From a virus (lineage: Duplodnaviria > Heunggongvirae > Uroviricota > Caudoviricetes), in IMG/VR virus record IMGVR_UViG_2563366972_000001, positions 1 through 11,846 of that record: a DNA stretch of 11,846 bases, one strand, 5' to 3'. Positions within the stretch are counted from its first letter, which is position 1. Each line of letters starts with the position of its first letter. A model generated the notes under the pieces. The model did no database searches and was not told the DNA's origin. It saw nothing but the letters and a program-made list of their open reading frames with translations. A program made the position numbers and the translations under genes. Shown piece by piece: positions 1 through 7,521 of this stretch.

Positions 1-2940
1 ATGCTGTCAGACATAGCGGTCTGCCTGATCCGCTATGTGAAAAATCCCGATTTATGCCCTGCTGAATTGCTGCCATGGCTGGCCTGGGAAATGGCGGTGG
101 ATACCTGGAATGAACACTGGACGGAGACGGAAAAAAGGTCTGCGATAAAACGTGCTGCTTACATCCACCGCCACAGAGGGACTAAAGCGGCGCTGATGGC
201 ATCGCTGGCTGACAGTCCCTTCCGGTCGCAGATTGTTGAGTGGTATGAGCAGACCCCACCCGGGGAGCCGTATACCTTTCGTCTGAACGTGGAGCAGAAG
301 GATTTACCGGTGCTGATGAATGATCATCAGGATCTGAAGCATGCGGTGCTTCGTGCGAAAAATCTGCGCTCATGGTTTTCGGTTCACGTTTATGGTCGCA
401 GTGCAGGCCAGGTTTATGCAGCCGGTTACGCCTGTGCCACCGAATATATAAGGAGCCGCATTTTTCCGACCGGTATCACCCTGACGGAAACGGAAGTCTG
501 GCTGGAGCCCGGGGAATGTCGTTTTATCGGCGTCACTATCCTGCCACCGGAGGCGGAAGACAAAAGTTTCACTGTCCGGGTTGCAGAGCCTGGTTGTGTC
601 ACAGCCACCCTGGCGGAAGGCGGTTTTCTACTGACGGGACAGACGTACGGAGAATGCCAGGTTACCGTGACCACCCTCAACGGTATCAGTTGCACGGTCA
701 GCGTGAAGGTGGTTCCGGTGCTGGCGTTTGTCTCCCGGGTGGAGTCTGCTGACCGGCCCTTATTTTTTGTCCGGCCTGAAAACGCTGATTTCCTGATTAA
801 TTACGGTGACGGTGATAACAGAGAGTATGCGCTCAGGAGTACAAATTCCGGTGTGCTGTATGGTGTATACGCCACACGCCCGCTGACGGAGGGTACCGAA
901 TATCTTATTACCGTAAAAAACCCCGGGCAGGCCACGCTGCAACGCACAGCAGACGCGTTCTCCGCCGCCCTGAATCCGGTCACGGAGCTGGTTCGTTATA
1001 CGGGAACAGTGAGTTCATTAGCGTCGTTTGTCAGTGGACAGCGAAACCTGGTCACTGTACATGACGACGCCTTTAAGGGACTGCAGGGGGTACGGGACTG
1101 TTACAGCCTGTTTACTGGTTGTACCGCACTGGAGACGGTTCCCGCCACACTCTTCGCCGGCTTCACTGAGGCCCGGAGTTTCAGAGGCGTCTTCAGTAAT
1201 TGTACCTCGCTGTCAGCTGTCCCTGACGGCTTATTCCGTGGTCTGGAGAACGCGGGTACGTTTGACAGTGCATTTTATGGCTGCAGCGCGTTGCAGACGG
1301 TGGGGCGAGACCTGTTTTCAGGCTGCACATCGGCCAAGGATTTTGGCAGGCTTTTTTATAACTGTACCTCACTGACCAGTATCGGCGAGGGGCTGTTTAC
1401 TGGCTGTGTCAGTGCCACGCAGTTCAGGGAGGCGTTTTATTCCTGCAGTCGACTGGCGACCATTCCCGGAGGTATCTTCAGCCATGTGCCTGGCGGGGAT
1501 TTTTCCCGGACATTCAGCAAATGTACGTCACTGACGGCGGTACCTTCCGGGATGTTCAGCCCGTGCATCCGCTCAACGACATTCCGGGAGGCATTTATGG
1601 ACTGCAGTGCATTACAGTCCCTCCCGGATGGCCTGTTTGAAAATCTGACCAGCGTCACCACCTTCAACAGTGTGTTCAGAAACTGTACGGCGCTGCGTAC
1701 CACCGGAGACCATCTGTTCCGTAACTGCACGGGGGCAGGAGATTTTTCTTTCGCATTTTACGGTGATAAATCTCTGCAAAGCACCGGAGAGGGGCTTCTG
1801 GCAGGCTGTACCGGTGCAAAAGACTTTGCTTCGGCATTTTATAACTGCCGGGTGCTGAGCGTAATGCCGGATTTTGGTGACTGCCGTGAGCTGACGACCC
1901 TTCATTCTGCATTTCGTAACTGCGAGTCACTGACGGAGATCCCTGACGGTGCGTTCAGAGGGGCTGAAAATCTCATCAACGTGTATAACGCCTTTATGGC
2001 GTGTTCCGGTCTGCTGCGCGTGGGGGAACGTGTATTCAGTGACTGCACCGCCCTGACACAGGTCCGGGGGCTGTTCGTCGACTGTGTCTCGCTGCGCTCT
2101 GTTGGAGCCCGCTTATTTGACGGGTGCTCAGAAATTAAAGAGCTACTGGAGGTATTCAGGAACTGCCGCGCTCTGCGCACCCTGCCGCTGATGCTGTTTG
2201 GCAATGTTCCCGGAGTCACCTATCTCTGGATGACGTTCAGTGGCTGCATTTCGCTGGAAAGCCTCCCGGACGACCTGTTTGGAGCCATGACGAAACTGAC
2301 GACCGCCAGGGGTATTTTTTATTCCTGCACATCACTGACCACTGTTCCGCCCGGTGTGTTTGAGCACAATCCGCTGCTGGTTACGGTGGAGAGTGCTTTT
2401 GCGGGATGTACAGCGCTGCAGACCGTACCGGAGTCGCTGTTTGCTGCCTGTCCGCTGATATCCGTCTTCCTGAGTGCGTTTTCTGAAACCGGACTGGTCT
2501 CAGTGCCTGCAGGGCTGTTCCGTCACAACCTGCACGTCACCACGTTCAGTAAGGTGTTTATGAAATGTTCCCGTCTGGAGGTGGTCCCCGCGGATCTGTT
2601 TTCCGGTAACAGTCTGGCCACGGATTTCAGCTATGCGTTCAGCCAGTGCACATCACTGAAACAGGCGGAAACAGGCTTGCTTTCCGGTACAGCGGTATCG
2701 GATGCCGGGCACCTCTTTGACAGATGTGTATCACTGGAAAGTATTGTGGAGGCGATTTTCAGCCCGGATTTTTTCAGTACGGTGACGGATGTAAGAAGCG
2801 CGTTTGAAGGGTGTGTGAAGCTGCGCGGGCACGGGCTGTCATTTATCAGCAGACTGCCTGAGCAGGTCATCCATGCAAGAACACTGTTTCAGTGCACAGC
2901 ACTGGACGATTACGGCGAATTGCCGACAGGATGGAGTTAA
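1..2940 (+). CDS. 5'-partial baseplate wedge protein (P2 gpI-like) fused in frame to an ~820-aa C-terminal extension: beta-rich, possibly Ig-like, segment plus tandem Cys-containing LRR-like repeats
   Basis: One uninterrupted frame from window position 1 to TAA at 2938-2940; the window starts inside the gene, so the true start lies upstream. Residues ~1-155 carry the tail-protein-I hallmark 'NPDLCPAELLPWLAWEMAVDTWNEHWTETEKRSAIKRAAY...EWYEQTPPGEPYTFRLNV', which aligns to my recollection of P2 gpI (NPDTCPANLLPWLAWAFSVDRWDEKW...). Where gpI normally ends (~nt 465) the frame continues for >800 aa. Residues ~355-979 are ~22 repeats of ~27 aa with motif F-x-x-C-[TS]-x-L-x-x-[VI]-P-x-x-L-F. Confidence 0.8.
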   Translation: MLSDIAVCLIRYVKNPDLCPAELLPWLAWEMAVDTWNEHWTETEKRSAIKRAAYIHRHRGTKAALMASLADSPFRSQIVEWYEQTPPGEPYTFRLNVEQKDLPVLMNDHQDLKHAVLRAKNLRSWFSVHVYGRSAGQVYAAGYACATEYIRSRIFPTGITLTETEVWLEPGECRFIGVTILPPEAEDKSFTVRVAEPGCVTATLAEGGFLLTGQTYGECQVTVTTLNGISCTVSVKVVPVLAFVSRVESADRPLFFVRPENADFLINYGDGDNREYALRSTNSGVLYGVYATRPLTEGTEYLITVKNPGQATLQRTADAFSAALNPVTELVRYTGTVSSLASFVSGQRNLVTVHDDAFKGLQGVRDCYSLFTGCTALETVPATLFAGFTEARSFRGVFSNCTSLSAVPDGLFRGLENAGTFDSAFYGCSALQTVGRDLFSGCTSAKDFGRLFYNCTSLTSIGEGLFTGCVSATQFREAFYSCSRLATIPGGIFSHVPGGDFSRTFSKCTSLTAVPSGMFSPCIRSTTFREAFMDCSALQSLPDGLFENLTSVTTFNSVFRNCTALRTTGDHLFRNCTGAGDFSFAFYGDKSLQSTGEGLLAGCTGAKDFASAFYNCRVLSVMPDFGDCRELTTLHSAFRNCESLTEIPDGAFRGAENLINVYNAFMACSGLLRVGERVFSDCTALTQVRGLFVDCVSLRSVGARLFDGCSEIKELLEVFRNCRALRTLPLMLFGNVPGVTYLWMTFSGCISLESLPDDLFGAMTKLTTARGIFYSCTSLTTVPPGVFEHNPLLVTVESAFAGCTALQTVPESLFAACPLISVFLSAFSETGLVSVPAGLFRHNLHVTTFSKVFMKCSRLEVVPADLFSGNSLATDFSYAFSQCTSLKQAETGLLSGTAVSDAGHLFDRCVSLESIVEAIFSPDFFSTVTDVRSAFEGCVKLRGHGLSFISRLPEQVIHARTLFQCTALDDYGELPTGWS
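1063..2937 (+). repeat. Protein-level tandem repeat array (~22 units x ~81 nt) inside the gpI-fusion ORF; leucine-rich-repeat-like with one conserved Cys per unit
   Basis: Translation shows recurring units such as 'FSNCTSLSAVPDGLFRGLENAGTFDSA', 'FYNCTSLTSIGEGLFTGCVSATQFREA', 'FSKCTSLTAVPSGMFSPCIRSTTFREA', 'FYSCTSLTTVPPGVFEHNPLLVTVESA'. Units are diverged at nucleotide level, so this is an old internal repeat, not a recent duplication. Confidence 0.7.
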
Positions 2941-2942
2941 CC

Positions 2943-3158
2943 ATGACGTTCGTTCAGATGAAGACGTTAATTCATTTCTGCCAGACGGACAGTTGTTTCG
3001 TTGCGTACCTGCAGACACTGGCCCGGGCCGGGGTTCTGGTGATTAACGACGGAGACATTGATGAAGAGAAAAAAGAGGTCAGCCCGGAACTCCGTGACCG
3101 CCTTGTCCGTGTATTTGGTCTGACCACAGAGGAGGCTGTATGTCCGGACTTGTCCTGA
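2943..3158 (+). CDS. Small hypothetical protein (~71 aa) between the gpI-fusion gene and tail fiber H
   Basis: ATG at 2943 preceded by GGAG (2933-2936) with 6-nt spacing. Ends at TGA 3156-3158, overlapping the H start at 3140. Alternative in-frame starts at ATG 2931 or GTG 2892. No family recognised from the translation (MTFVQMKTLIHFCQTDSCFVAYLQTLARAGVLVINDGDIDEEKKEV...). Confidence 0.45.
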   Translation: MTFVQMKTLIHFCQTDSCFVAYLQTLARAGVLVINDGDIDEEKKEVSPELRDRLVRVFGLTTEEAVCPDLS

Positions 3159-4567
3159 CGCTGGCCGGGGCCAGGGAGATTGAAGCCGCCTGGCAGGCCG
3201 GTAAAACGGTTGTTCTGTCAGATGTGGTACTGGGTGACGGTGGTGACGGAAACCTGCCGGATACACCGGATGATATGGCGGCGGTCACGCAGTTGTATGG
3301 GCCGTTTGGCAGTGAACCCTTTTCCACAGCCGGCAGTGACGAAGGGATGATCAGTGGTCAGGTGGTGATTGACTGCAAAAAATATCCGGGAAAAATCCTG
3401 CGTGAACTGGGGCTGCGCAGTCGTTCAGGTACGCTGATTGCTTACGGGCGCTATCCGGATACGTATCTGCCTGCCCAGACGGATTCCATTGTGAAAGAAG
3501 TGATTATCACACTGGTGCTGACACTGACGCATGCGGAAAGTGTGGTGGTGGAAATTGACCCGAACAGGGCCATTATTACTCAGGAAATCGGAGACAGACG
3601 CTATCTGCAACGAAAAAAGAATCTTTCGGATGTGGAAGACAAGGATGAGGCTGTTGAAAACCTCGGATTAAAACCCACGGTGGACAAGGCAAAAAATGCC
3701 GTTCAGCGTGATGGTGACACCATGACCGGGGAACTGAAAATCCGTGGCGTTAATGCGCTGAGGATTTTCAACGACGCTTTTGGCCTTATTTTTCGTCGTT
3801 CGGAAGAGTGCCTGCATCTTATCCCTACCAGTGAAGGTCAGGGCGAGAATGGCGATATTGGTCCACTTCGACCGTTCACTATTAATCTGCGGACGGGTGA
3901 AATATCCATGTCGCATAAAGTGTCTGTTGGCGGCGGTTCTCAGGTCAATGGTGCGCTGGGTATCGGCGTTCAGAACGCGCTGGGCGGAAACTCAATTGCT
4001 TTCGGGGATAACGATACAGGTATAAAACAAAACGGCGACGGCATTCTGGATGTTTATGCGAATGGACAGCATGTATTTCGTTTCCAGAATGGTGTGGCGA
4101 TAGCGTTAAAAAATATTCAGGCCGGAAATGCTAAAAAATTCACGTTATCCAGCGCCAACAACTCCACGAAAAACGCAACGTTTAATTTATGGGGTAATTC
4201 ATCCCGACCTGTAGTTGCAGAGCTTGGTGATGATTCCGGCTGGCATTTTTACAGCCAGAGAAATACCGATGGCAGTATCACATTCGCTGTAAACGGACAG
4301 ATGACCCCATCAAACTATGGAAATTTCGATGCCCGTTATCAGCAGCGAAATGGCGGCGTGCAGGATGTGCGTTATGGTTCCGAAATGTTCTATAACCCTG
4401 GGGGAAATGAAATTTCCTGGACATTTCGCTCACCTGCAGGCTACGGGTTATCCGGTATTAATGTGCAGGAAACCGGAAGTAATTCGGCAGATAACATCGG
4501 CGGCGTGTATTACCGTCCGCTTCAGAAACTGATTAATGGCACCTGGTATAACGTGGCGAGTGTTTAA
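3140..4567 (+). CDS. H: Tail fiber protein (P2 gpH-like) with P2-type C-terminal receptor-binding region
   Basis: ATG at 3140 preceded by GAGGAGG. N-terminus 'LTLAGAREIEAAW...VVLGDGGDG' resembles the baseplate-attachment N-terminus of P2/Mu fibers. C-terminal ~200 aa 'NALGGNSIAFGDNDTGIKQNGDGILDVYANGQHVFRFQNGVAIALKNIQAG...RPVVAELGDDSGWHFYSQRNTDGSITFAVNGQMTPSNYGNFDARY...INGTWYNVASV' closely matches the remembered P2 gpH C-terminus. At 475 aa it is shorter than P2 gpH (669 aa as I recall). Confidence 0.9.
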   Translation: MSGLVLTLAGAREIEAAWQAGKTVVLSDVVLGDGGDGNLPDTPDDMAAVTQLYGPFGSEPFSTAGSDEGMISGQVVIDCKKYPGKILRELGLRSRSGTLIAYGRYPDTYLPAQTDSIVKEVIITLVLTLTHAESVVVEIDPNRAIITQEIGDRRYLQRKKNLSDVEDKDEAVENLGLKPTVDKAKNAVQRDGDTMTGELKIRGVNALRIFNDAFGLIFRRSEECLHLIPTSEGQGENGDIGPLRPFTINLRTGEISMSHKVSVGGGSQVNGALGIGVQNALGGNSIAFGDNDTGIKQNGDGILDVYANGQHVFRFQNGVAIALKNIQAGNAKKFTLSSANNSTKNATFNLWGNSSRPVVAELGDDSGWHFYSQRNTDGSITFAVNGQMTPSNYGNFDARYQQRNGGVQDVRYGSEMFYNPGGNEISWTFRSPAGYGLSGINVQETGSNSADNIGGVYYRPLQKLINGTWYNVASV

Positions 4568-4569
4568 CA

Positions 4570-5112
4570 ATGTTACATTTAAAAAATATTACTGCGGGTA
4601 ATCCGAAAACCGCGGAACAATATCAGATGACAAAACAACATGGTATCACCTGGCTTTTTTCGGAAGATGACAAAAACTGGTATGAAGAGCTGAAAAATTT
4701 TGCCAGTGACACCATAAAAATGGTTTACACCGGAGACGGGCGCGTGGTGTGGGTCGGTAAGGATGTGACAGGCATTGAACCCCGTAACGCCAGTGTTATT
4801 GAAGTTCCTGATATTACCGCTAATCGCCGTATTACCGTGCCTGGTTACTGGTTTTACCGCGACGATAAATTTGTCTTCGACTACAAACTTAAAGCGGAAG
4901 ATGAGCGCGATGCCCTGTTAAAACAGGTCAGCATCATGACCAGCGAGTGGGAAAAAGACCTGCTGCCGGGATTAATCAGTGACGAAGACAGGGAGAAGCT
5001 GAAAGCGTACCGCATTTACGCGAAATCGCTGCAGGCGATGGATTTCAGCGCTATTACGGATAAGACCACATACAACAATATTAGCTGGCCTGAGCATCCA
5101 CAAAATACCTGA
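4570..5112 (+). CDS. G: Tail fiber assembly chaperone (P2 gpG-like)
   Basis: Starts 2 nt after the H stop. N-terminus 'MLHLKNITAGNPKTAEQYQMTK...WYEELKNF..DTIKMVY' and 'VIEVPDITANRR' match the remembered P2 gpG ([22 protein letters not shown]...WYEEVKNF...VVEVPDITSNRR). Confidence 0.85.
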   Translation: MLHLKNITAGNPKTAEQYQMTKQHGITWLFSEDDKNWYEELKNFASDTIKMVYTGDGRVVWVGKDVTGIEPRNASVIEVPDITANRRITVPGYWFYRDDKFVFDYKLKAEDERDALLKQVSIMTSEWEKDLLPGLISDEDREKLKAYRIYAKSLQAMDFSAITDKTTYNNISWPEHPQNT

Positions 5113-5130
5113 AAAAGAAGTTAATCATCT

Positions 5131-5153
5131 GACCGCCTGAGGGCGGTTTTTTT
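5131..5153 (+). terminator. Rho-independent terminator-like hairpin downstream of G
   Basis: Stem CCGCC (5133-5137), loop TGAG, stem GGCGG (5142-5146), then a 7-T run (5147-5153). Lies 19 nt after the G stop and just upstream of the sheath RBS. Confidence 0.65.
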
Positions 5154-5166
5154 ATGGGAGAAATGT

Positions 5167-6642
5167 ATGTCCGGATTACATGGTGTTGAAACCATTGAAC
5201 TGACAACAGGCACGGTTGCCGTGCAGACCATCTCCACGGCAGTGATTGGCCTGGTGGGGACTGCGCCGGGCGCCTCCGGCGGTGTGTGCGCTTCCGGTAC
5301 TGCTGGCTCGTGGCTGCTGGGAACGGCGCTGGATTTCACGGCGAAACAGGAGGGCCGGGTCGGCAATAAGATTTCGGTGGTTGCCGTCGCGGCCACAGAA
5401 CAAAGCGCGCAGACAGTGGTCTCGCTGAAAGGTACGACCCTGACGATAACGCTGGGGACGGATGAGCACAGCCAGGTTAACGCCACGGTGGAGCGTGTGA
5501 CTGAAGTGGTGAATGCGCTGGGGGATTCGCCTGTGACGGCGGCTGTCAGCACCCTGAATGCAGGAGACGCTGAAAATAAAGTGGTGTTGCCGTTCAGCCT
5601 GACGTTATCCGGCGGAGAAGATGAGGCGTTCCCGGTCAATACACCAGTGGTGGTGGCAGGAGCCATTACTCAGGCAGGGAAACTGGGCACAGCCGGAACA
5701 TTATACCCGGCCCTGCGAGATATTTTTGACCAGACTGGTGCGATGGTGATTGTGGTGCGCGCAGAAAGTAAAACAAAGGCGAAAGAGGCCGAACAGCGTG
5801 CGGCGGTGATTCAGGCCATGGAGGCGCTGACAGAAAGTAAGGGCGTGACAGGCTATCAACCGCGCATCCTCATTGCCACGGGGTACAGTGAGGATGATGG
5901 CGTGGCAAAGGCGCTGGAAACGTATGCCGTGAAGCTGCGGGCTGTGGCCTATATTGACTCGCCCTCAATGGCAACGCCGCAGGATGTGGTTCAGCGTCGC
6001 GCGTCCTTTGGCGGACGCGTGGAGCTTCTGCGTCCGCGCGTATCAGTGACGGATGACAGCGGGCAGACGGTGTTTCGTCCGTATTCGGCGCGCGCTGCCG
6101 GGCTGCGTGCCCGTATTGATTACGAAAAAGGGTGGTGGTGGTCCAAATCAAACCAGGACGTGATGAATATCACCGGTCTGGAGCAGGTGGATACGTTTAT
6201 TCTCGGGGAGCAGAACTGCACGGCAAACCTGCTGAACATGGAAAATATCTCCACCATTATTCGTCACGATGGTTTTAAACACTGGGGCAACCGTCTGTGT
6301 TCATCCCACAGTCAGTGGCGTTTTGAGCCGGTACGCCGTACTGCAGATGTGATTGAGGACAGCATTCAGGAGGCCATGCTGCCTTATGTCGATCGTCCGC
6401 TTGATCGGGATGTGGCAGACGACATTCTTGGCAGCATTAATGCCTATATGCGTCAGCTTAAAAATCTGGGCGCGATCCACGGAGGCAGTGCATGGCTGAA
6501 CGATGAACTGAACACTGCAGAAACCCTGGCTGCAGGGCAGTTGTATATCGATTATGACTTTGGGCCGAAGTCACCACTGGAGCGCCTGACACTGCGGGCG
6601 ATGATTAACAATAAACTGGCGCTGGAGGAGCTGACGGTATGA
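5167..6642 (+). CDS. FI: Contractile tail sheath protein (P2 gpFI-like) with an extra N-proximal insertion domain
   Basis: ATG at 5167 with GGGAG at 5156-5160. N-terminus 'MSGLHGVETIEL..GT..V.TISTAVIGLVGTA' and the C-terminal half 'PRILIATGYSED...RAAGLRARIDYEKGWW...IIRHDGFKHWGNRLCS...ETLAAGQLYIDYDFGPKSPLERLTLR' match the remembered P2 FI. At 491 aa it is about 95 aa longer than P2 FI. Confidence 0.9.
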   Translation: MSGLHGVETIELTTGTVAVQTISTAVIGLVGTAPGASGGVCASGTAGSWLLGTALDFTAKQEGRVGNKISVVAVAATEQSAQTVVSLKGTTLTITLGTDEHSQVNATVERVTEVVNALGDSPVTAAVSTLNAGDAENKVVLPFSLTLSGGEDEAFPVNTPVVVAGAITQAGKLGTAGTLYPALRDIFDQTGAMVIVVRAESKTKAKEAEQRAAVIQAMEALTESKGVTGYQPRILIATGYSEDDGVAKALETYAVKLRAVAYIDSPSMATPQDVVQRRASFGGRVELLRPRVSVTDDSGQTVFRPYSARAAGLRARIDYEKGWWWSKSNQDVMNITGLEQVDTFILGEQNCTANLLNMENISTIIRHDGFKHWGNRLCSSHSQWRFEPVRRTADVIEDSIQEAMLPYVDRPLDRDVADDILGSINAYMRQLKNLGAIHGGSAWLNDELNTAETLAAGQLYIDYDFGPKSPLERLTLRAMINNKLALEELTV

Positions 6643-7157
6643 TGACGGGTGAAAAAAAACTGTTGCGCGCATGGGCGTTATTTCTTCCTGGCGGGATCCG
6701 TCTTCAGGGGGCGCATGAATACACGCCGCCTGCCATTAATATCACGACAGTGGATATCAAAACCGGCGCAATGGATGCACCAGTGGCAGTGGATGACGGC
6801 ATGGAGGCGCTGACCTGCTCATTTAAGATTTATGGCTACGATGTTGCCATGCTGACCCTGCTGGGATTACAGGCCGGGCTTTATTCGCCGGAGATTGTTG
6901 TGCGTCAGGCTTACCGGGTGGGAAATGCGACCAGCGGGGAGGTGGAGACACTGCAGGGGATGATCACCAGTATCACACCAGATGCGCGTCCGGCGACATC
7001 ACAGGCGGATGCCTCGGTGACAGTGGAAATGTCGCTGAGTTATTACCGTCAGGCTGTCGACGGTCTGGAAACCATCTGCATTATTCCGGAGGAATTTGTA
7101 CGTCGTATTAACGGCGTTAATGTTCTGTCGGATCTGAAAAAAATTATCCGGGTTTAA
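6639..7157 (+). CDS. FII: Tail tube protein (P2 gpFII-like)
   Basis: ATG at 6639 overlaps the sheath stop (ATGA), with GGAGGAG at 6624-6630. 172 aa, the same length as P2 FII. C-terminal 'MSLSYYRQAVDGLETICIIPEEFVRRINGVNVLSDL' resembles the tube family motif. Confidence 0.85.
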   Translation: MMTGEKKLLRAWALFLPGGIRLQGAHEYTPPAINITTVDIKTGAMDAPVAVDDGMEALTCSFKIYGYDVAMLTLLGLQAGLYSPEIVVRQAYRVGNATSGEVETLQGMITSITPDARPATSQADASVTVEMSLSYYRQAVDGLETICIIPEEFVRRINGVNVLSDLKKIIRV

Positions 7158-7176
7158 TCCCGGCATCCTGTCAAGC

Positions 7177-7205
7177 AGGCGGCTCAGGCCGCCTTTTCTA
7201 TTTTT
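7177..7205 (+). terminator. Intrinsic terminator or attenuator hairpin between tube and E
   Basis: AGGCGGC (7177-7183), loop TCAG, GCCGCCT (7188-7194) form a perfect 7-bp stem, followed by TTTTCTATTTTT. Sits 20 nt after the tube stop and before the E RBS (AGGAG 7208-7212). Confidence 0.65.
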
Positions 7206-7218
7206 AAAGGAGACGCTT

Positions 7219-7521
7219 ATGTCGGAAAAAAACAGTGTTCCCGCCAGCAGTGTGGAAATTGTGTTATCCGTGCCATATGTCACCACATCAGGACAGACGA
7301 TCACCCACGTCACCATGCGTGCGCCTACCGTCCGCGATCGTCTGTTGCATCGTCGGAGTAACAAACCGGAAGCAGAGGCTGATCTGGATATGATTGCCGG
7401 TCTGTGTGGGATGGACGCGGCAGACATGATGAACATGGAAGCGTGTGATTACCTGGCCCTGGAGCGTCAGTTTAATGTTTTTTTGCTGCCGCCGGTCCGG
7501 CGGAAGAAGAAAGCATCCTGA
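7219..7521 (+). CDS. E: Tail assembly chaperone (P2 gpE-like), zero-frame product
   Basis: ATG at 7219 with AGGAG RBS; 100 aa. 'MRAPTVRDRLLHRR...' resembles gpE. The gene position after the tube and before the tape measure is canonical. Confidence 0.8.
   Translation: MSEKNSVPASSVEIVLSVPYVTTSGQTITHVTMRAPTVRDRLLHRRSNKPEAEADLDMIAGLCGMDAADMMNMEACDYLALERQFNVFLLPPVRRKKKAS

What the first reader, a model, noticed from the sequence alone, without database searches (positions are those of the whole stretch)
1..2940. Baseplate wedge protein gpI fused to an ~820-aa Ig-like plus LRR-repeat module
In P2 and its relatives as I know them, gpI is a compact ~176-aa baseplate wedge protein and the fiber gene H follows as a separate gene. 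Here the gpI homology ends near nt 465 with no stop codon, and the same frame continues for another ~2.47 kb through a beta-rich segment and ~22 leucine-rich-type repeats. That would place a large solenoid binding domain directly on the baseplate wedge, in addition to the canonical H fiber. LRR-type receptor-binding modules are, to my knowledge, not a described feature of P2-type baseplates. It could be an accessory receptor-binding or adhesin module, or a cargo-like domain displayed on the particle.
Basis: partly seen in the sequence, partly recalled or inferred. Interest (0 to 1): 0.85.

Follow-up and report, generated by a model that had tools for sequence, protein, structure and literature searches.

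The report
Phage baseplate protein carrying LRR arm
A small baseplate protein of an E. coli prophage, the one that normally just holds the tail fibre, has gained an 820-residue arm ending in a curved leucine-rich-repeat domain; this arm is swapped between related phages the way host-recognition parts are, so it is probably an extra, so far unstudied kind of receptor-binding device.

Summary
Window 1-2940 (+) is one uninterrupted ORF with five parts:
- a P2 gpI-type wedge core (Pfam Tail_P2_I, 1.3e-31);
- a Big_2 Ig-like domain;
- a PKD-like domain;
- 22-23 repeats of 27 residues of the BspA/LRR_5/PARCEL type;
- a conserved C-terminal cap.

Three corrections apply.
- The window cuts off the first 26 codons, so the full protein is 1005 aa.
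- This is not a stop-loss or frameshift fusion. Near-identical E. coli prophages have a 196-aa gpI followed directly by the fibre gene. Here 2.73 kb (nt 396-3126) replaces 97 nt.

The family is common but unstudied. It occurs in Klebsiella, Raoultella and E. coli prophages, including the P2-like genus Reipivirus, and is PHROG 9915. The same cassette also sits on an unrelated wedge protein (DUF2612, Pam3 gp23-like).

Among phages whose gpJ is at least 95% identical, the gpI core is 98% identical. The LRR averages only 74%, much like the fibre tip at 77%.

The best reading is six monomeric accessory receptor-binding arms on the fibre-docking wedge subunit. That function is inferred, not shown.

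The parts
1..459 (+). gpI (Tail_P2_I) wedge core, residues 1-153 of the window ORF. It is cut at the 5' end by the window edge; 26 codons are missing.
   Evidence: Pfam PF09684 1.3e-31 with profile positions 26-139 of 139. TIGR01634 5.9e-25. PDB 6u5b_0, pyocin R2 PA0619, 8.4e-16. 97% nt identity over 1-395 to E. coli SC407 gpI, which starts 78 nt upstream.
396..3126 (+). The 2.73-kb cassette relative to cassette-free E. coli prophages. It comprises the end of the gpI core, Big_2, the PKD-like domain, the LRR and the 71-aa gene.
   Evidence: blastn against SC407: window 1-395 and 3127-11575 match, and 97 nt stand in place of the cassette. No blastn match to the cassette in 5,426 complete E. coli genomes. 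Against L003, dS is 0.01-0.03 in the cassette but 0.71 in the gpI core and 0.28-0.36 in tube and sheath.
469..714 (+). Big_2 Ig-like domain (residues about 157-238).
   Evidence: Pfam Big_2 scores 18.8 bits here, below the cut-off of 22.8, but 29-35 bits in homologues. PHROG families described as 'Ig domain' or 'major tail protein' match residues 147-239. Foldseek to the lambda gpV C-terminal Ig domain 2l04 gives TM 0.77 and rmsd 2.0. pLDDT is 84-94.
715..1020 (+). PKD-like beta-sandwich domain (residues about 239-340) with the motif FxI(D/N)YGDG...YxITVKN.
   Evidence: A profile of this segment against PDB hits PKD domains: 4xed 3.8e-4, SorCS2 1wgo 1.3e-3, collagenase ColH 0.015. G269, D270 and G271 are nearly invariant in the family. 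pLDDT is 75-95.
1021..1110 (+). Linker and N-terminal cap leading into the solenoid (residues 341-370).
   Evidence: High-pLDDT segment that precedes the first canonical repeat.
1111..2940 (+). LRR solenoid: 22 repeats of 25-29 residues (mostly 27) plus an 18-residue C-terminal cap (residues 371-979), then the TAA stop. Consensus FxxCxxLxx(V/I)PxxLFxxxxxxxxFxxA, with a Cys ladder.
2943..3158 (+). 71-aa acidic accessory gene of the cassette (PHROG 11426, function unknown). A GGAG precedes it by 6 nt, and its end overlaps the fibre gene start.
   Evidence: phrog_11426 8.7e-39. 48% identical to Klebsiella phage gp36 and 44% identical to the ORF that follows a DUF2612-wedge-LRR protein. Present after the LRR gene in 57 of the 59 loci where the contig continues past it. 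Its divergence tracks the LRR (rho 0.74) and not the fibre tip (rho 0.26). No Pfam or NCBIfam match. The AF2 model is weak, pLDDT 64, with three helices and a hairpin.
3140..4567 (+). Canonical H-type tail fibre, which is retained.
   Evidence: Pfam Phage_tail_fib N-terminal domain 3.5e-14. 94% nt identity to the fibre of the cassette-free SC407 prophage.
4570..5112 (+). Tail fibre assembly protein.
   Evidence: Pfam Caudo_TAP 6.6e-22.

Best explanation
The gene encodes an enlarged version of the single-copy subunit of the baseplate wedge 'triplex'. This subunit is P2 gpI, equivalent to pyocin PA0619, E217 gp45 and Pam3 gp23.

Inferred structure: the N-terminal 180 residues build into the wedge with two copies of gpJ and dock the H fibre, as in ordinary relatives. 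The C-terminus continues as a two-domain Ig-type stalk (Big_2 plus PKD-like) and a curved solenoid of about 610 residues and 22-23 LRR repeats. Each of the six wedges would then carry one monomeric arm beside its trimeric fibre.

The arm and a dedicated 71-aa partner protein form a cassette that recombines between phages independently of the fibre tip.

The most likely function is an accessory receptor-binding or adhesion device that recognises a bacterial surface ligand and so sets or widens adsorption specificity. Because the arm is covalently joined to the subunit that relays the fibre signal to the baseplate, binding could also contribute to triggering. The 71-aa protein is most likely a folding or assembly factor, or a bound partner, of the arm.

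Shown here: the gene anatomy, the fold prediction, the cassette boundaries, conservation as one ORF, the synteny, and the pattern of variation.

Inferred only: presence on the virion, copy number, the ligand, and any role in triggering.
For: Anatomy and fold.

The fusion is real and selected.
- About 15 protein clusters keep one ORF of 995-1148 aa at 31-47% identity. One K. pneumoniae cluster has 1,551 member sequences and another has 877.
- 52 of 70 examined loci show gpI-LRR, then the small ORF, then the fibre. Most of the remaining loci are cut by contig ends.
- Pooled within-type dN/dS is 0.20 for the LRR and 0.03 for the gpI core.

It is a cassette.
- Its boundaries against E. coli SC407 are sharp.
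- Very low dS against L003 inside the cassette contrasts with high dS outside it.
- The same Big_2, PKD-like, LRR and small-ORF unit is attached to a DUF2612/Pam3-gp23-type wedge protein and to a divergent Tail_P2_I.

It behaves like a host-range determinant.
- For 920 phage pairs with gpJ at least 95% identical, mean identity is 98% for the gpI core, 95% for the fibre N-terminus, 74% for the LRR (minimum 44%) and 77% for the fibre C-terminus.
- There are 7 LRR types at 80% identity among 49 loci. LRR and fibre-tip divergence are nearly uncorrelated, rho 0.24.

Position.
- The single-copy triplex subunit is the fibre-docking and signal-relaying subunit in E217 (PMC10329688) and connects to the fibre in diffocin (PMC10996793).
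- PA0619 and Pam3 gp23 occur as 6 chains per baseplate entry.

LRR_5 modules also sit at the C-terminus of a tail protein next to fibre and tailspike genes in E. coli phapecoctaviruses. They are frequent in predicted phage proteins.
Against: - No experiment shows the protein in virions, and no ligand is known.
- Overall dN/dS of the LRR is below 1. No localised hypervariable patch was seen: variability is spread evenly over non-scaffold positions and along the solenoid.
- The AF2 model of the gpI core is poor, with pLDDT 35-80, so the direction in which the arm leaves the wedge is unknown.
- Cassette-free relatives with the same fibre exist, so the arm is dispensable for the tail as such.
- The pair statistics use non-independent pairs from a sample dominated by one Klebsiella phage genus.
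Confidence: 0.55

Rival explanations
1. Artefact or degenerate gene. The long ORF would result from a sequencing or assembly error, or from a recent stop-loss or frameshift joining gpI to a separate downstream gene, and it would not be made as one protein.
For: Ordinary gpI is about 176-196 aa, and close E. coli relatives have a stop at that point. One distant lineage (L053, L061) does carry the module as a separate ORF, split inside Big_2.
Against: The same single ORF recurs in dozens of independent assemblies and 62 IMG/VR loci, at identities as low as 31%, with the domain order preserved. Purifying selection acts on it. The junction is a recombination joint inside homologous gpI sequence, not a lost stop.
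Confidence: 0.02
2. Structural or regulatory arm rather than a receptor binder. The LRR arm would hold or stow the tail fibres, shield the baseplate, or act as a spacer or sensor that prevents premature triggering. Its variation would then reflect co-adaptation to other phage parts.
For: - The arm is attached to the very subunit that docks the fibre.
- Its length is largely conserved: 608-609 residues in most members, with changes only by whole repeats.
- No hypervariable patch was found.
- A dedicated small partner protein co-varies with it.
Against: LRR divergence is nearly independent of fibre-tip divergence (rho 0.24) and of the fibre N-terminus, which stays at 95%. The same cassette works on two unrelated wedge families with different fibres, carrying Phage_tail_fib or Collar/Gp10_C domains. 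Identical fibres function without it.
Confidence: 0.17
3. Adhesin for a non-host surface. The Ig-like domains and the BspA-type LRR would tether the virion to mucus, gut epithelium or other matrices to raise encounter rates with hosts (a 'BAM'-type model), not to a bacterial receptor.
For: Big_2 and PKD Ig-like decorations on phages are commonly discussed this way (my own knowledge, not tested here). The nearest non-phage relatives of the LRR are BACON/DUF285 surface proteins from gut-type metagenomes and Bacteroides or Faecalibacterium LRR surface proteins. The hosts are gut Enterobacteriaceae.
Against: A generic matrix adhesin would not be expected to diversify into at least 7 types and to exchange in step with nothing but its own partner on otherwise identical phages. 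Its location on the distal baseplate, beside the fibres, suits contact with the cell surface.
Confidence: 0.12
4. Cargo, effector or lysogenic-conversion product. The LRR module would be delivered into or act on a target cell like LRR effectors of secretion systems, or be expressed from the prophage as a bacterial surface protein.
Against: It is fused in frame to an outer wedge subunit, in the middle of the late tail operon, with translationally coupled neighbours. It has no signal peptide or lipobox of its own and no enzymatic domain. Wedge subunits stay outside the cell on contraction.
Confidence: 0.03

Closest known systems
P2 gpI / R2-pyocin PA0619 (Pfam Tail_P2_I, TIGR01634): the single-copy subunit of the baseplate wedge triplex
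   Same: The N-terminal 153 (full length about 180) residues match above the curated cut-offs. Gene order is gpW, gpJ, gpI, fibre. The orthologue in cassette-free E. coli prophages is 97% identical at nt level.
   Different: The protein is five to six times longer. The last 16 or so residues of the ordinary protein are replaced by an 826-residue extension of Big_2, a PKD-like domain and the LRR, and an extra 71-aa gene follows.
Enlarged single-copy wedge subunits: E217 gp45 (504 aa), Pam3 gp23/DUF2612, T4 gp7, and eCIS Cis12/Afp12-type proteins
   Same: They hold the same position in the wedge, and added domains on this subunit have precedent. E217 gp45 docks the fibre and relays the trigger. 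A DUF2612/Pam3-gp23-like protein carries the very same cassette in L004 and L052. There is a weak match to NCBIfam CIS12_fam.
   Different: None of those described proteins has an LRR solenoid. Their extra domains are integral baseplate parts rather than an exchangeable distal cassette. The comparison with T4 gp7 and Afp12 rests on my own knowledge and was not tested here.
BspA-type LRR_5 / DUF285 / PARCEL surface-protein repeats (Bacteroides, Faecalibacterium, Listeria, Mycoplasma; PDB 4fs7, 4gt6)
   Different: Here the repeats are not on a secreted or lipid-anchored cell-surface protein but on the C-terminus of a virion baseplate subunit. The function of this repeat class is itself largely unknown. 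A 2020 phage paper notes PARCEL in a jumbo phage as 'not described in phages' (PMC7765460).
'Evolved' distal tail proteins and tail-associated proteins of siphophages, which carry inserted carbohydrate-binding modules (analogy only, from my own knowledge)
   Same: The concept is the same: a conserved baseplate building block decorated with exchangeable binding modules that supplement the main receptor-binding protein.
   Different: The phage morphotype, the carrier protein and the fold differ. Those are CBM or Ig-like insertions in hexameric or trimeric proteins, whereas this is a monomeric LRR on a myophage wedge. This was not tested here.
Klebsiella phage ST16-OXA48phi5.4 gp35 'tail protein I' (Reipivirus, Peduoviridae) and PHROG 9915
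   Same: Full-length homologue: 1008 aa, 43% identity over 100% of the query. It is followed by a 70-aa ORF that is 48% identical to the window's small ORF, and then by a tail-collar fibre.
   Different: It sits in a true P2-like genome, whereas the window element has a lambda-like head module. It is annotated only by name. The papers on that phage do not discuss the extension.

Membership tests
Tail_P2_I (P2 gpI wedge protein; PF09684 / TIGR01634) | Profile match above the curated cut-off | tested here: met
   PF09684 scores 109.7 bits against 20.6. TIGR01634 scores 87.8 against 30.05.
Tail_P2_I (P2 gpI wedge protein; PF09684 / TIGR01634) | Gene position between gpJ (Baseplate_J) and the fibre gene in a contractile-tail module | tested here: met
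   The upstream part lies outside the window, but in the 97%-identical L003 and in SC407 the order is GPW_gp25, Baseplate_J, this gene, fibre. The fibre, sheath, tube, E, tape measure protein, U, X and D genes follow in the window.
Tail_P2_I (P2 gpI wedge protein; PF09684 / TIGR01634) | Compact single-domain protein of about 176-196 aa | tested here: not met
   979 aa in the window and 1005 aa in full. This is a member by its core domain but an extended architecture.
Tail_P2_I (P2 gpI wedge protein; PF09684 / TIGR01634) | One copy per wedge, in a heterotrimer with two gpJ, docking the fibre | not testable with these tools
   Inferred from pyocin R2 (6 chains of PA0619 per entry) and from E217 and diffocin.
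BspA-type LRR_5 / PARCEL (DUF285 clan) repeat proteins | Profile match above the curated cut-off | tested here: met
   LRR_5 scores 43.4-47.6 bits against 27.7. TIGR02167 scores 42.9 against 30. DUF285 itself is detected only in homologues.
BspA-type LRR_5 / PARCEL (DUF285 clan) repeat proteins | Tandem repeats of about 26 residues that form a curved LRR solenoid | tested here: met
BspA-type LRR_5 / PARCEL (DUF285 clan) repeat proteins | Cell-surface protein of a bacterium (signal peptide, lipoprotein or anchor) | tested here: not met
   The N-terminus is a phage wedge domain and the gene sits in a tail operon.
Big_2 bacterial Ig-like domain | Profile match above cut-off, or a fold match | tested here: inconclusive
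   The window scores 18.8 bits, below the cut-off of 22.8. Homologues at the aligned position score 29-35 bits. The predicted fold matches the lambda gpV Ig domain at TM 0.77.
PKD domain | Sequence-profile similarity including the (W/Y)xxGDG motif | tested here: inconclusive
   A family profile hits PDB PKD domains at 3.8e-4 to 0.015. There is no Pfam PKD hit for the window itself.
CBM56 carbohydrate-binding module (considered because of the 7quz match) | Sequence similarity of the second beta-sandwich to CBM56 | tested here: not met
   The 7quz hit (2.9e-6) covers Big_2 plus the next domain. Residues 231-350 searched alone give no CBM56 hit, and the family profile finds PKD domains instead.
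Phage receptor-binding protein (functional class) | Virion-exposed, binds a host surface receptor, determines host range | not testable with these tools
   The only support is indirect. It diverges like a fibre tip and exchanges as a cassette on a conserved backbone.

The most novel reading that the evidence does not exclude
The arm is a new class of phage receptor-binding device: a monomeric LRR solenoid present six times per particle and fused directly to the trigger-relaying wedge subunit. It comes with its own 71-aa helper and is exchangeable as a cassette between unrelated baseplate types. Its repeat scaffold (invariant F/C/L/P core, free surface positions) would work like a natural 'repebody' library for retargeting P2-like phages and tailocins of Klebsiella and E. 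coli.
Probability: 0.4. Interest if true: 0.7.

Novelty: new variant of a known kind. Interest (0 to 1): 0.5.

Why it matters
Known receptor-binding proteins of tailed phages are mainly trimeric fibres and spikes. A monomeric LRR arm built onto the baseplate wedge would add a different recognition principle, in phages of clinically important hosts (Klebsiella, E. coli).

The cassette is easy to recognise and occurs in at least 7 sequence types on an almost constant tail. It could therefore explain host-range differences between near-identical prophages. It also offers a modular handle for engineering phages or R-type tailocins.

The family would also give the large, functionally obscure BspA/DUF285/PARCEL repeat class a tractable test system. 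If the arm turns out to be only decorative, the finding is a well-documented example of module shuffling and little more.

Tried and rejected
- Megablast of the gene against phage GenBank records found nothing. Only tblastn found the Klebsiella homologues.
- blastn of the cassette against 5,426 complete E. coli genomes found nothing, although draft E. coli assemblies hold proteins 97-100% identical.
- Stop-loss or frameshift origin was rejected on the basis of the cassette boundaries and the conserved single ORF.
- CBM56 identity of the middle domain was rejected.
- The idea that solenoid length is strictly fixed was rejected. Relatives carry one or two extra repeats.
- The small ORF has no Pfam or NCBIfam family. 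A single-sequence homologue search found only its own cluster. The AF2 model is too weak (pLDDT 64) for a fold search, so none was run.
- The pooled dN/dS for gpJ (0.45) is unreliable because my fixed-length slicing misaligns it, so I do not use it.
- Window-versus-L003 dN/dS of 1.6 for Big_2 plus the PKD-like domain rests on 9 non-synonymous and 2 synonymous changes. It is not evidence of positive selection.
- Eight literature searches found no description of a gpI-LRR fusion or of a functionally characterised LRR on a phage tail. A CASP16 paper that matched the search terms was irrelevant.
- The afdb50 fold library was unavailable.
- I could not read model coordinates, so the curvature and length of the arm were not measured.


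Full report
**What is in the sequence**

Window 1-2940 (+) is a single open frame of 979 codons ending in TAA.

- Residues 10-123 match Pfam Tail_P2_I (1.3e-31, 109.7 bits against a cut-off of 20.6) and TIGR01634. They also match the solved R2-pyocin baseplate protein PA0619 (8.4e-16).
- The Pfam match begins at profile position 26. The orthologous gpI of E. coli SC407 starts 78 nt further upstream, and the closest homologue has Leu where the window has its first Met. The window therefore cuts off 26 codons, and the full protein is 1005 aa (P0001).
- Similarity to ordinary gpI runs to about residue 153.

After the core come four further parts:

- a Big_2 Ig-like domain, weak by Pfam here but clear in homologues and by fold;
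- a second beta-sandwich whose family profile finds PKD domains in the PDB;
- a short cap;
- a repeat region covering residues 371-979.

Self-comparison of the repeat region peaks at a lag of 27 residues (26% identity against about 5% background). In register there are 22 units plus an 18-residue C-terminal cap, with consensus FxxCxxLxxVPxxLFxxxxxxxxFxxA. LRR_5, LRR_8 and the PARCEL repeat model all score above their cut-offs.

The units are only about 39% identical to each other at nucleotide level, so this is an old repeat array and not a recent expansion.

**Surroundings**

Directly downstream lies a 71-codon ORF (2943-3158), with GGAG 6 nt before its ATG and its end overlapping the next gene.

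The rest of the tail module follows:

| Coordinates | Gene |
|---|---|
| 3140-4567 | H-type fibre with the Phage_tail_fib N-terminal domain |
| 4570-5112 | fibre assembly protein |
| 5167-6642 | sheath |
| 6639-7157 | tube |
| 7219-7521 | gpE chaperone |
| 7639-9291 | tape measure protein |
| 9288-9782 | gpU |
| 9757-9975 | gpX |
| 9966-11066 | gpD |

Contigs that carry the closest relatives show a lambda-type head module upstream: gpA terminase, Phage_portal_2, a ClpP-capsid fusion and a head decoration protein. The element is therefore a lambda-head, P2-tail hybrid and not P2 proper.

**How the fusion arose**

369 of 5,426 complete E. coli genomes carry relatives of this tail module, and none covers the whole window.

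In the best match, SC407, window 1-395 (97%) and 3127-11575 (94%) align. Between them SC407 has 97 nt where the window has 2,731 nt. There gpI is 196 aa and its stop overlaps the fibre start.

The 5' joint lies inside the homologous gpI sequence, because protein similarity continues for 20 residues beyond the nucleotide break. This is recombination between gpI alleles, not loss of a stop codon.

A second E. coli contig, L003, carries the same cassette at 96-100% identity on a more divergent backbone:

| Region | dS against L003 |
|---|---|
| cassette | 0.01-0.03 |
| gpI core | 0.71 |
| sheath | 0.36 |
| tube | 0.28 |

The cassette has thus moved recently between diverged prophages. blastn finds no trace of it in the complete E. 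coli genomes. Draft E. coli assemblies do hold it, under the name 'phage tail protein I'.

**How widespread it is**

A protein search with the extension alone finds a family of 995-1148-aa proteins with the same domain order, 31-47% identical to the window protein. It occurs in Klebsiella pneumoniae (one cluster of 1,551 sequences and another of 877), K. oxytoca, K. michiganensis, K. aerogenes, Raoultella, Enterobacter and E. coli.

It is gp35 of Klebsiella phage ST16-OXA48phi5.4 (genus Reipivirus, Peduoviridae), where a homologous 70-aa ORF and a tail-collar fibre follow it. It forms PHROG 9915, and the small ORF forms PHROG 11426; both are of unknown function.

A scan of IMG/VR gave 62 further loci. 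Over all loci held:

- 52 show wedge-LRR in one ORF, then the small ORF, then the fibre;
- 8 are cut by contig ends;
- 2 lack the small ORF;
- 5 have another kind of N-terminus together with the small ORF.

Those five other N-termini are informative. In L004 and L052 the same Big_2, PKD-like, LRR and small-ORF unit is attached to a DUF2612 protein related to Pam3 gp23 and XM1 gp17, in a Pam3/E217-like tail module. In L038 it is attached to a divergent Tail_P2_I. The module therefore attaches specifically to the single-copy wedge subunit encoded just before the fibre gene, whatever that subunit's family.

**How it varies**

Scaffold positions of the repeat (F1, C4, L7, P11, L14, F15, F24) are nearly invariant across the family. 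All other positions vary freely and evenly along the solenoid. Solenoid length is 608-609 residues in most members, with one or two extra repeats in some.

For 49 complete loci I compared segments pairwise. Among the 920 pairs whose gpJ is at least 95% identical, mean identities are as follows:

| Segment | Mean identity |
|---|---|
| gpI core | 98% |
| fibre N-terminus | 95% |
| Big_2 plus PKD-like | 83% |
| small ORF | 81% |
| LRR | 74% (minimum 44%) |
| fibre C-terminus | 77% (minimum 19%) |

Divergence of the small ORF follows the LRR (Spearman 0.74) and not the fibre tip (0.26), although the small ORF lies between them. LRR and fibre tip vary almost independently (0.24), and there are 7 LRR types at 80% identity.

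Pooled dN/dS within types is 0.20 for the LRR against 0.03 for the gpI core. This indicates purifying but much looser selection. These pair statistics are descriptive, because the pairs are not independent and the sample is dominated by one phage genus.

**How it most likely works**

In solved baseplates the wedge is a triplex of two copies of the gpJ-type subunit and one copy of the gpI-type subunit. PA0619 and Pam3 gp23 appear as six chains per entry. In E217 the single-copy subunit gp45 inserts a loop into the fibre's N-terminal trimer and is proposed to relay fibre pulling to the rest of the wedge (PMC10329688). In diffocin its unresolved C-terminal region connects to the fibre (PMC10996793).

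By inference, each of the six wedges of this phage would carry, next to its trimeric fibre, one monomeric arm made of two Ig-type domains and a curved LRR. Three observations point to an accessory receptor-binding or adhesion function:

- the arm diversifies and recombines like a fibre tip on a constant tail;
- it is independent of the fibre;
- BspA-type LRR modules also end a tail protein next to fibre and tailspike genes in E. coli phapecoctaviruses.

The 71-aa protein, restricted to these loci and co-varying with the arm, is most simply a dedicated folding or assembly factor or a bound partner. Its predicted structure is too uncertain to say more.

None of this is shown experimentally. I put about 0.55 on the receptor-binding reading. 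I put about 0.17 on a structural or regulatory arm, 0.12 on adhesion to non-host matrices, and very little on artefact or cargo.

**Comparison with what is known, and novelty**

By its core the protein belongs to the Tail_P2_I family, but it fails the 'compact protein' expectation. By its repeats it belongs to the LRR_5/PARCEL class, but it is not a bacterial surface protein.

Enlarged single-copy wedge subunits are known (E217 gp45; T4 gp7 and eCIS Cis12 from my own knowledge). Binding modules added to baseplate building blocks are familiar from siphophages. No solved phage particle among the structural hits contains an LRR solenoid.

Eight literature searches found no description of this fusion. 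One 2020 phage genome paper merely notes PARCEL/DUF285 genes in a jumbo phage as undescribed in phages.

The sequences themselves are abundant and already named in databases. I therefore rate this as a new variant of a known kind, with interest 0.5. It is real, recurrent, testable and relevant to host range in Klebsiella and E. coli phages. Its function remains inferred, and the general principle of modular host-recognition parts is familiar.

Noticed in passing
window 11091-11846 (+): A second fibre gene starts 25 nt after gpD and runs off the window end (MSVLISGVLTDGAGLPMSGYHIILKARQNT...). It matches the 'prophage tail fiber N-terminal domain-containing protein' of E. coli SC407 (L001:14460-17024). 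This phage may therefore carry three different adhesion devices.
   Followed up: partly
L053:5365-8859 and L061 (IMG/VR 3300026472_000152 and 3300031372_000443): In one distant lineage the homologous arm is not fused. The 263-aa protein after Baseplate_J ends inside the Big_2 domain (Pfam profile 1-49 of 79). A stop and a 46-nt spacer with a GGAGG site follow. An 811-aa ORF then carries the rest of Big_2, the PKD-like domain and the LRR, followed by the small-ORF homologue. Two separate metagenome contigs show this, so it is not a read error. It could be a split protein that reassembles, or a decaying gene.
   Followed up: partly
window 7471-7655 (+): The tail chaperone gene has the classic slippery run T7G at 7478-7485. 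The -1 frame stays open from there to about 7653 and reads like a genuine gpE' extension (…ILTAIRRAGAWFGWSPGDVMALPYTDFVAMMLAESEE…). This is the usual programmed frameshift of P2-type tails.
   Followed up: partly
window 4094-4513, compared with L003:14172-14381: The fibre gene is itself mosaic. Its first roughly 950 nt are shared with L003 (96%), but its C-terminal part is not. The whole fibre is 94% identical to that of SC407. The fibre tip and the LRR cassette have separate histories.
   Followed up: partly
L001:1-5900 and L003:1-10000 (upstream context of the window's element): The head module next to this P2-type tail is lambda-like: gpA terminase, Phage_portal_2, S49/ClpP protease-capsid, head decoration protein and gpFI. 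The prophage is a hybrid, not a member of the P2 group proper.
   Followed up: no
L007:4078-6750 (Escherichia phage Mt1B1_P17 gp118): An 890-aa 'tail protein' of a lytic phapecoctavirus ends in about 250 residues of the same LRR type. It lies beside a tail fibre gene and a 'colanic acid degradation' tailspike gene. Many related E. coli phages share it.
   Followed up: no
window 7639-9291 (+): The tape measure protein is short (550 aa) and has no Pfam match. Only PHROG families identify it (phrog_3654, plus weak tape-measure families).
   Followed up: no
window 5121-5666 (-): A 181-codon ORF lies antisense to the start of the sheath gene and has no Pfam match. It is probably a chance ORF in GC-rich coding sequence.
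   Followed up: no
L009 (IMGVR_UViG_2711768060_000007, 6.3 kb): A viral-database contig is 100% identical to the window over the whole extension. The element, or a twin of it, is therefore already in IMG/VR.
   Followed up: no
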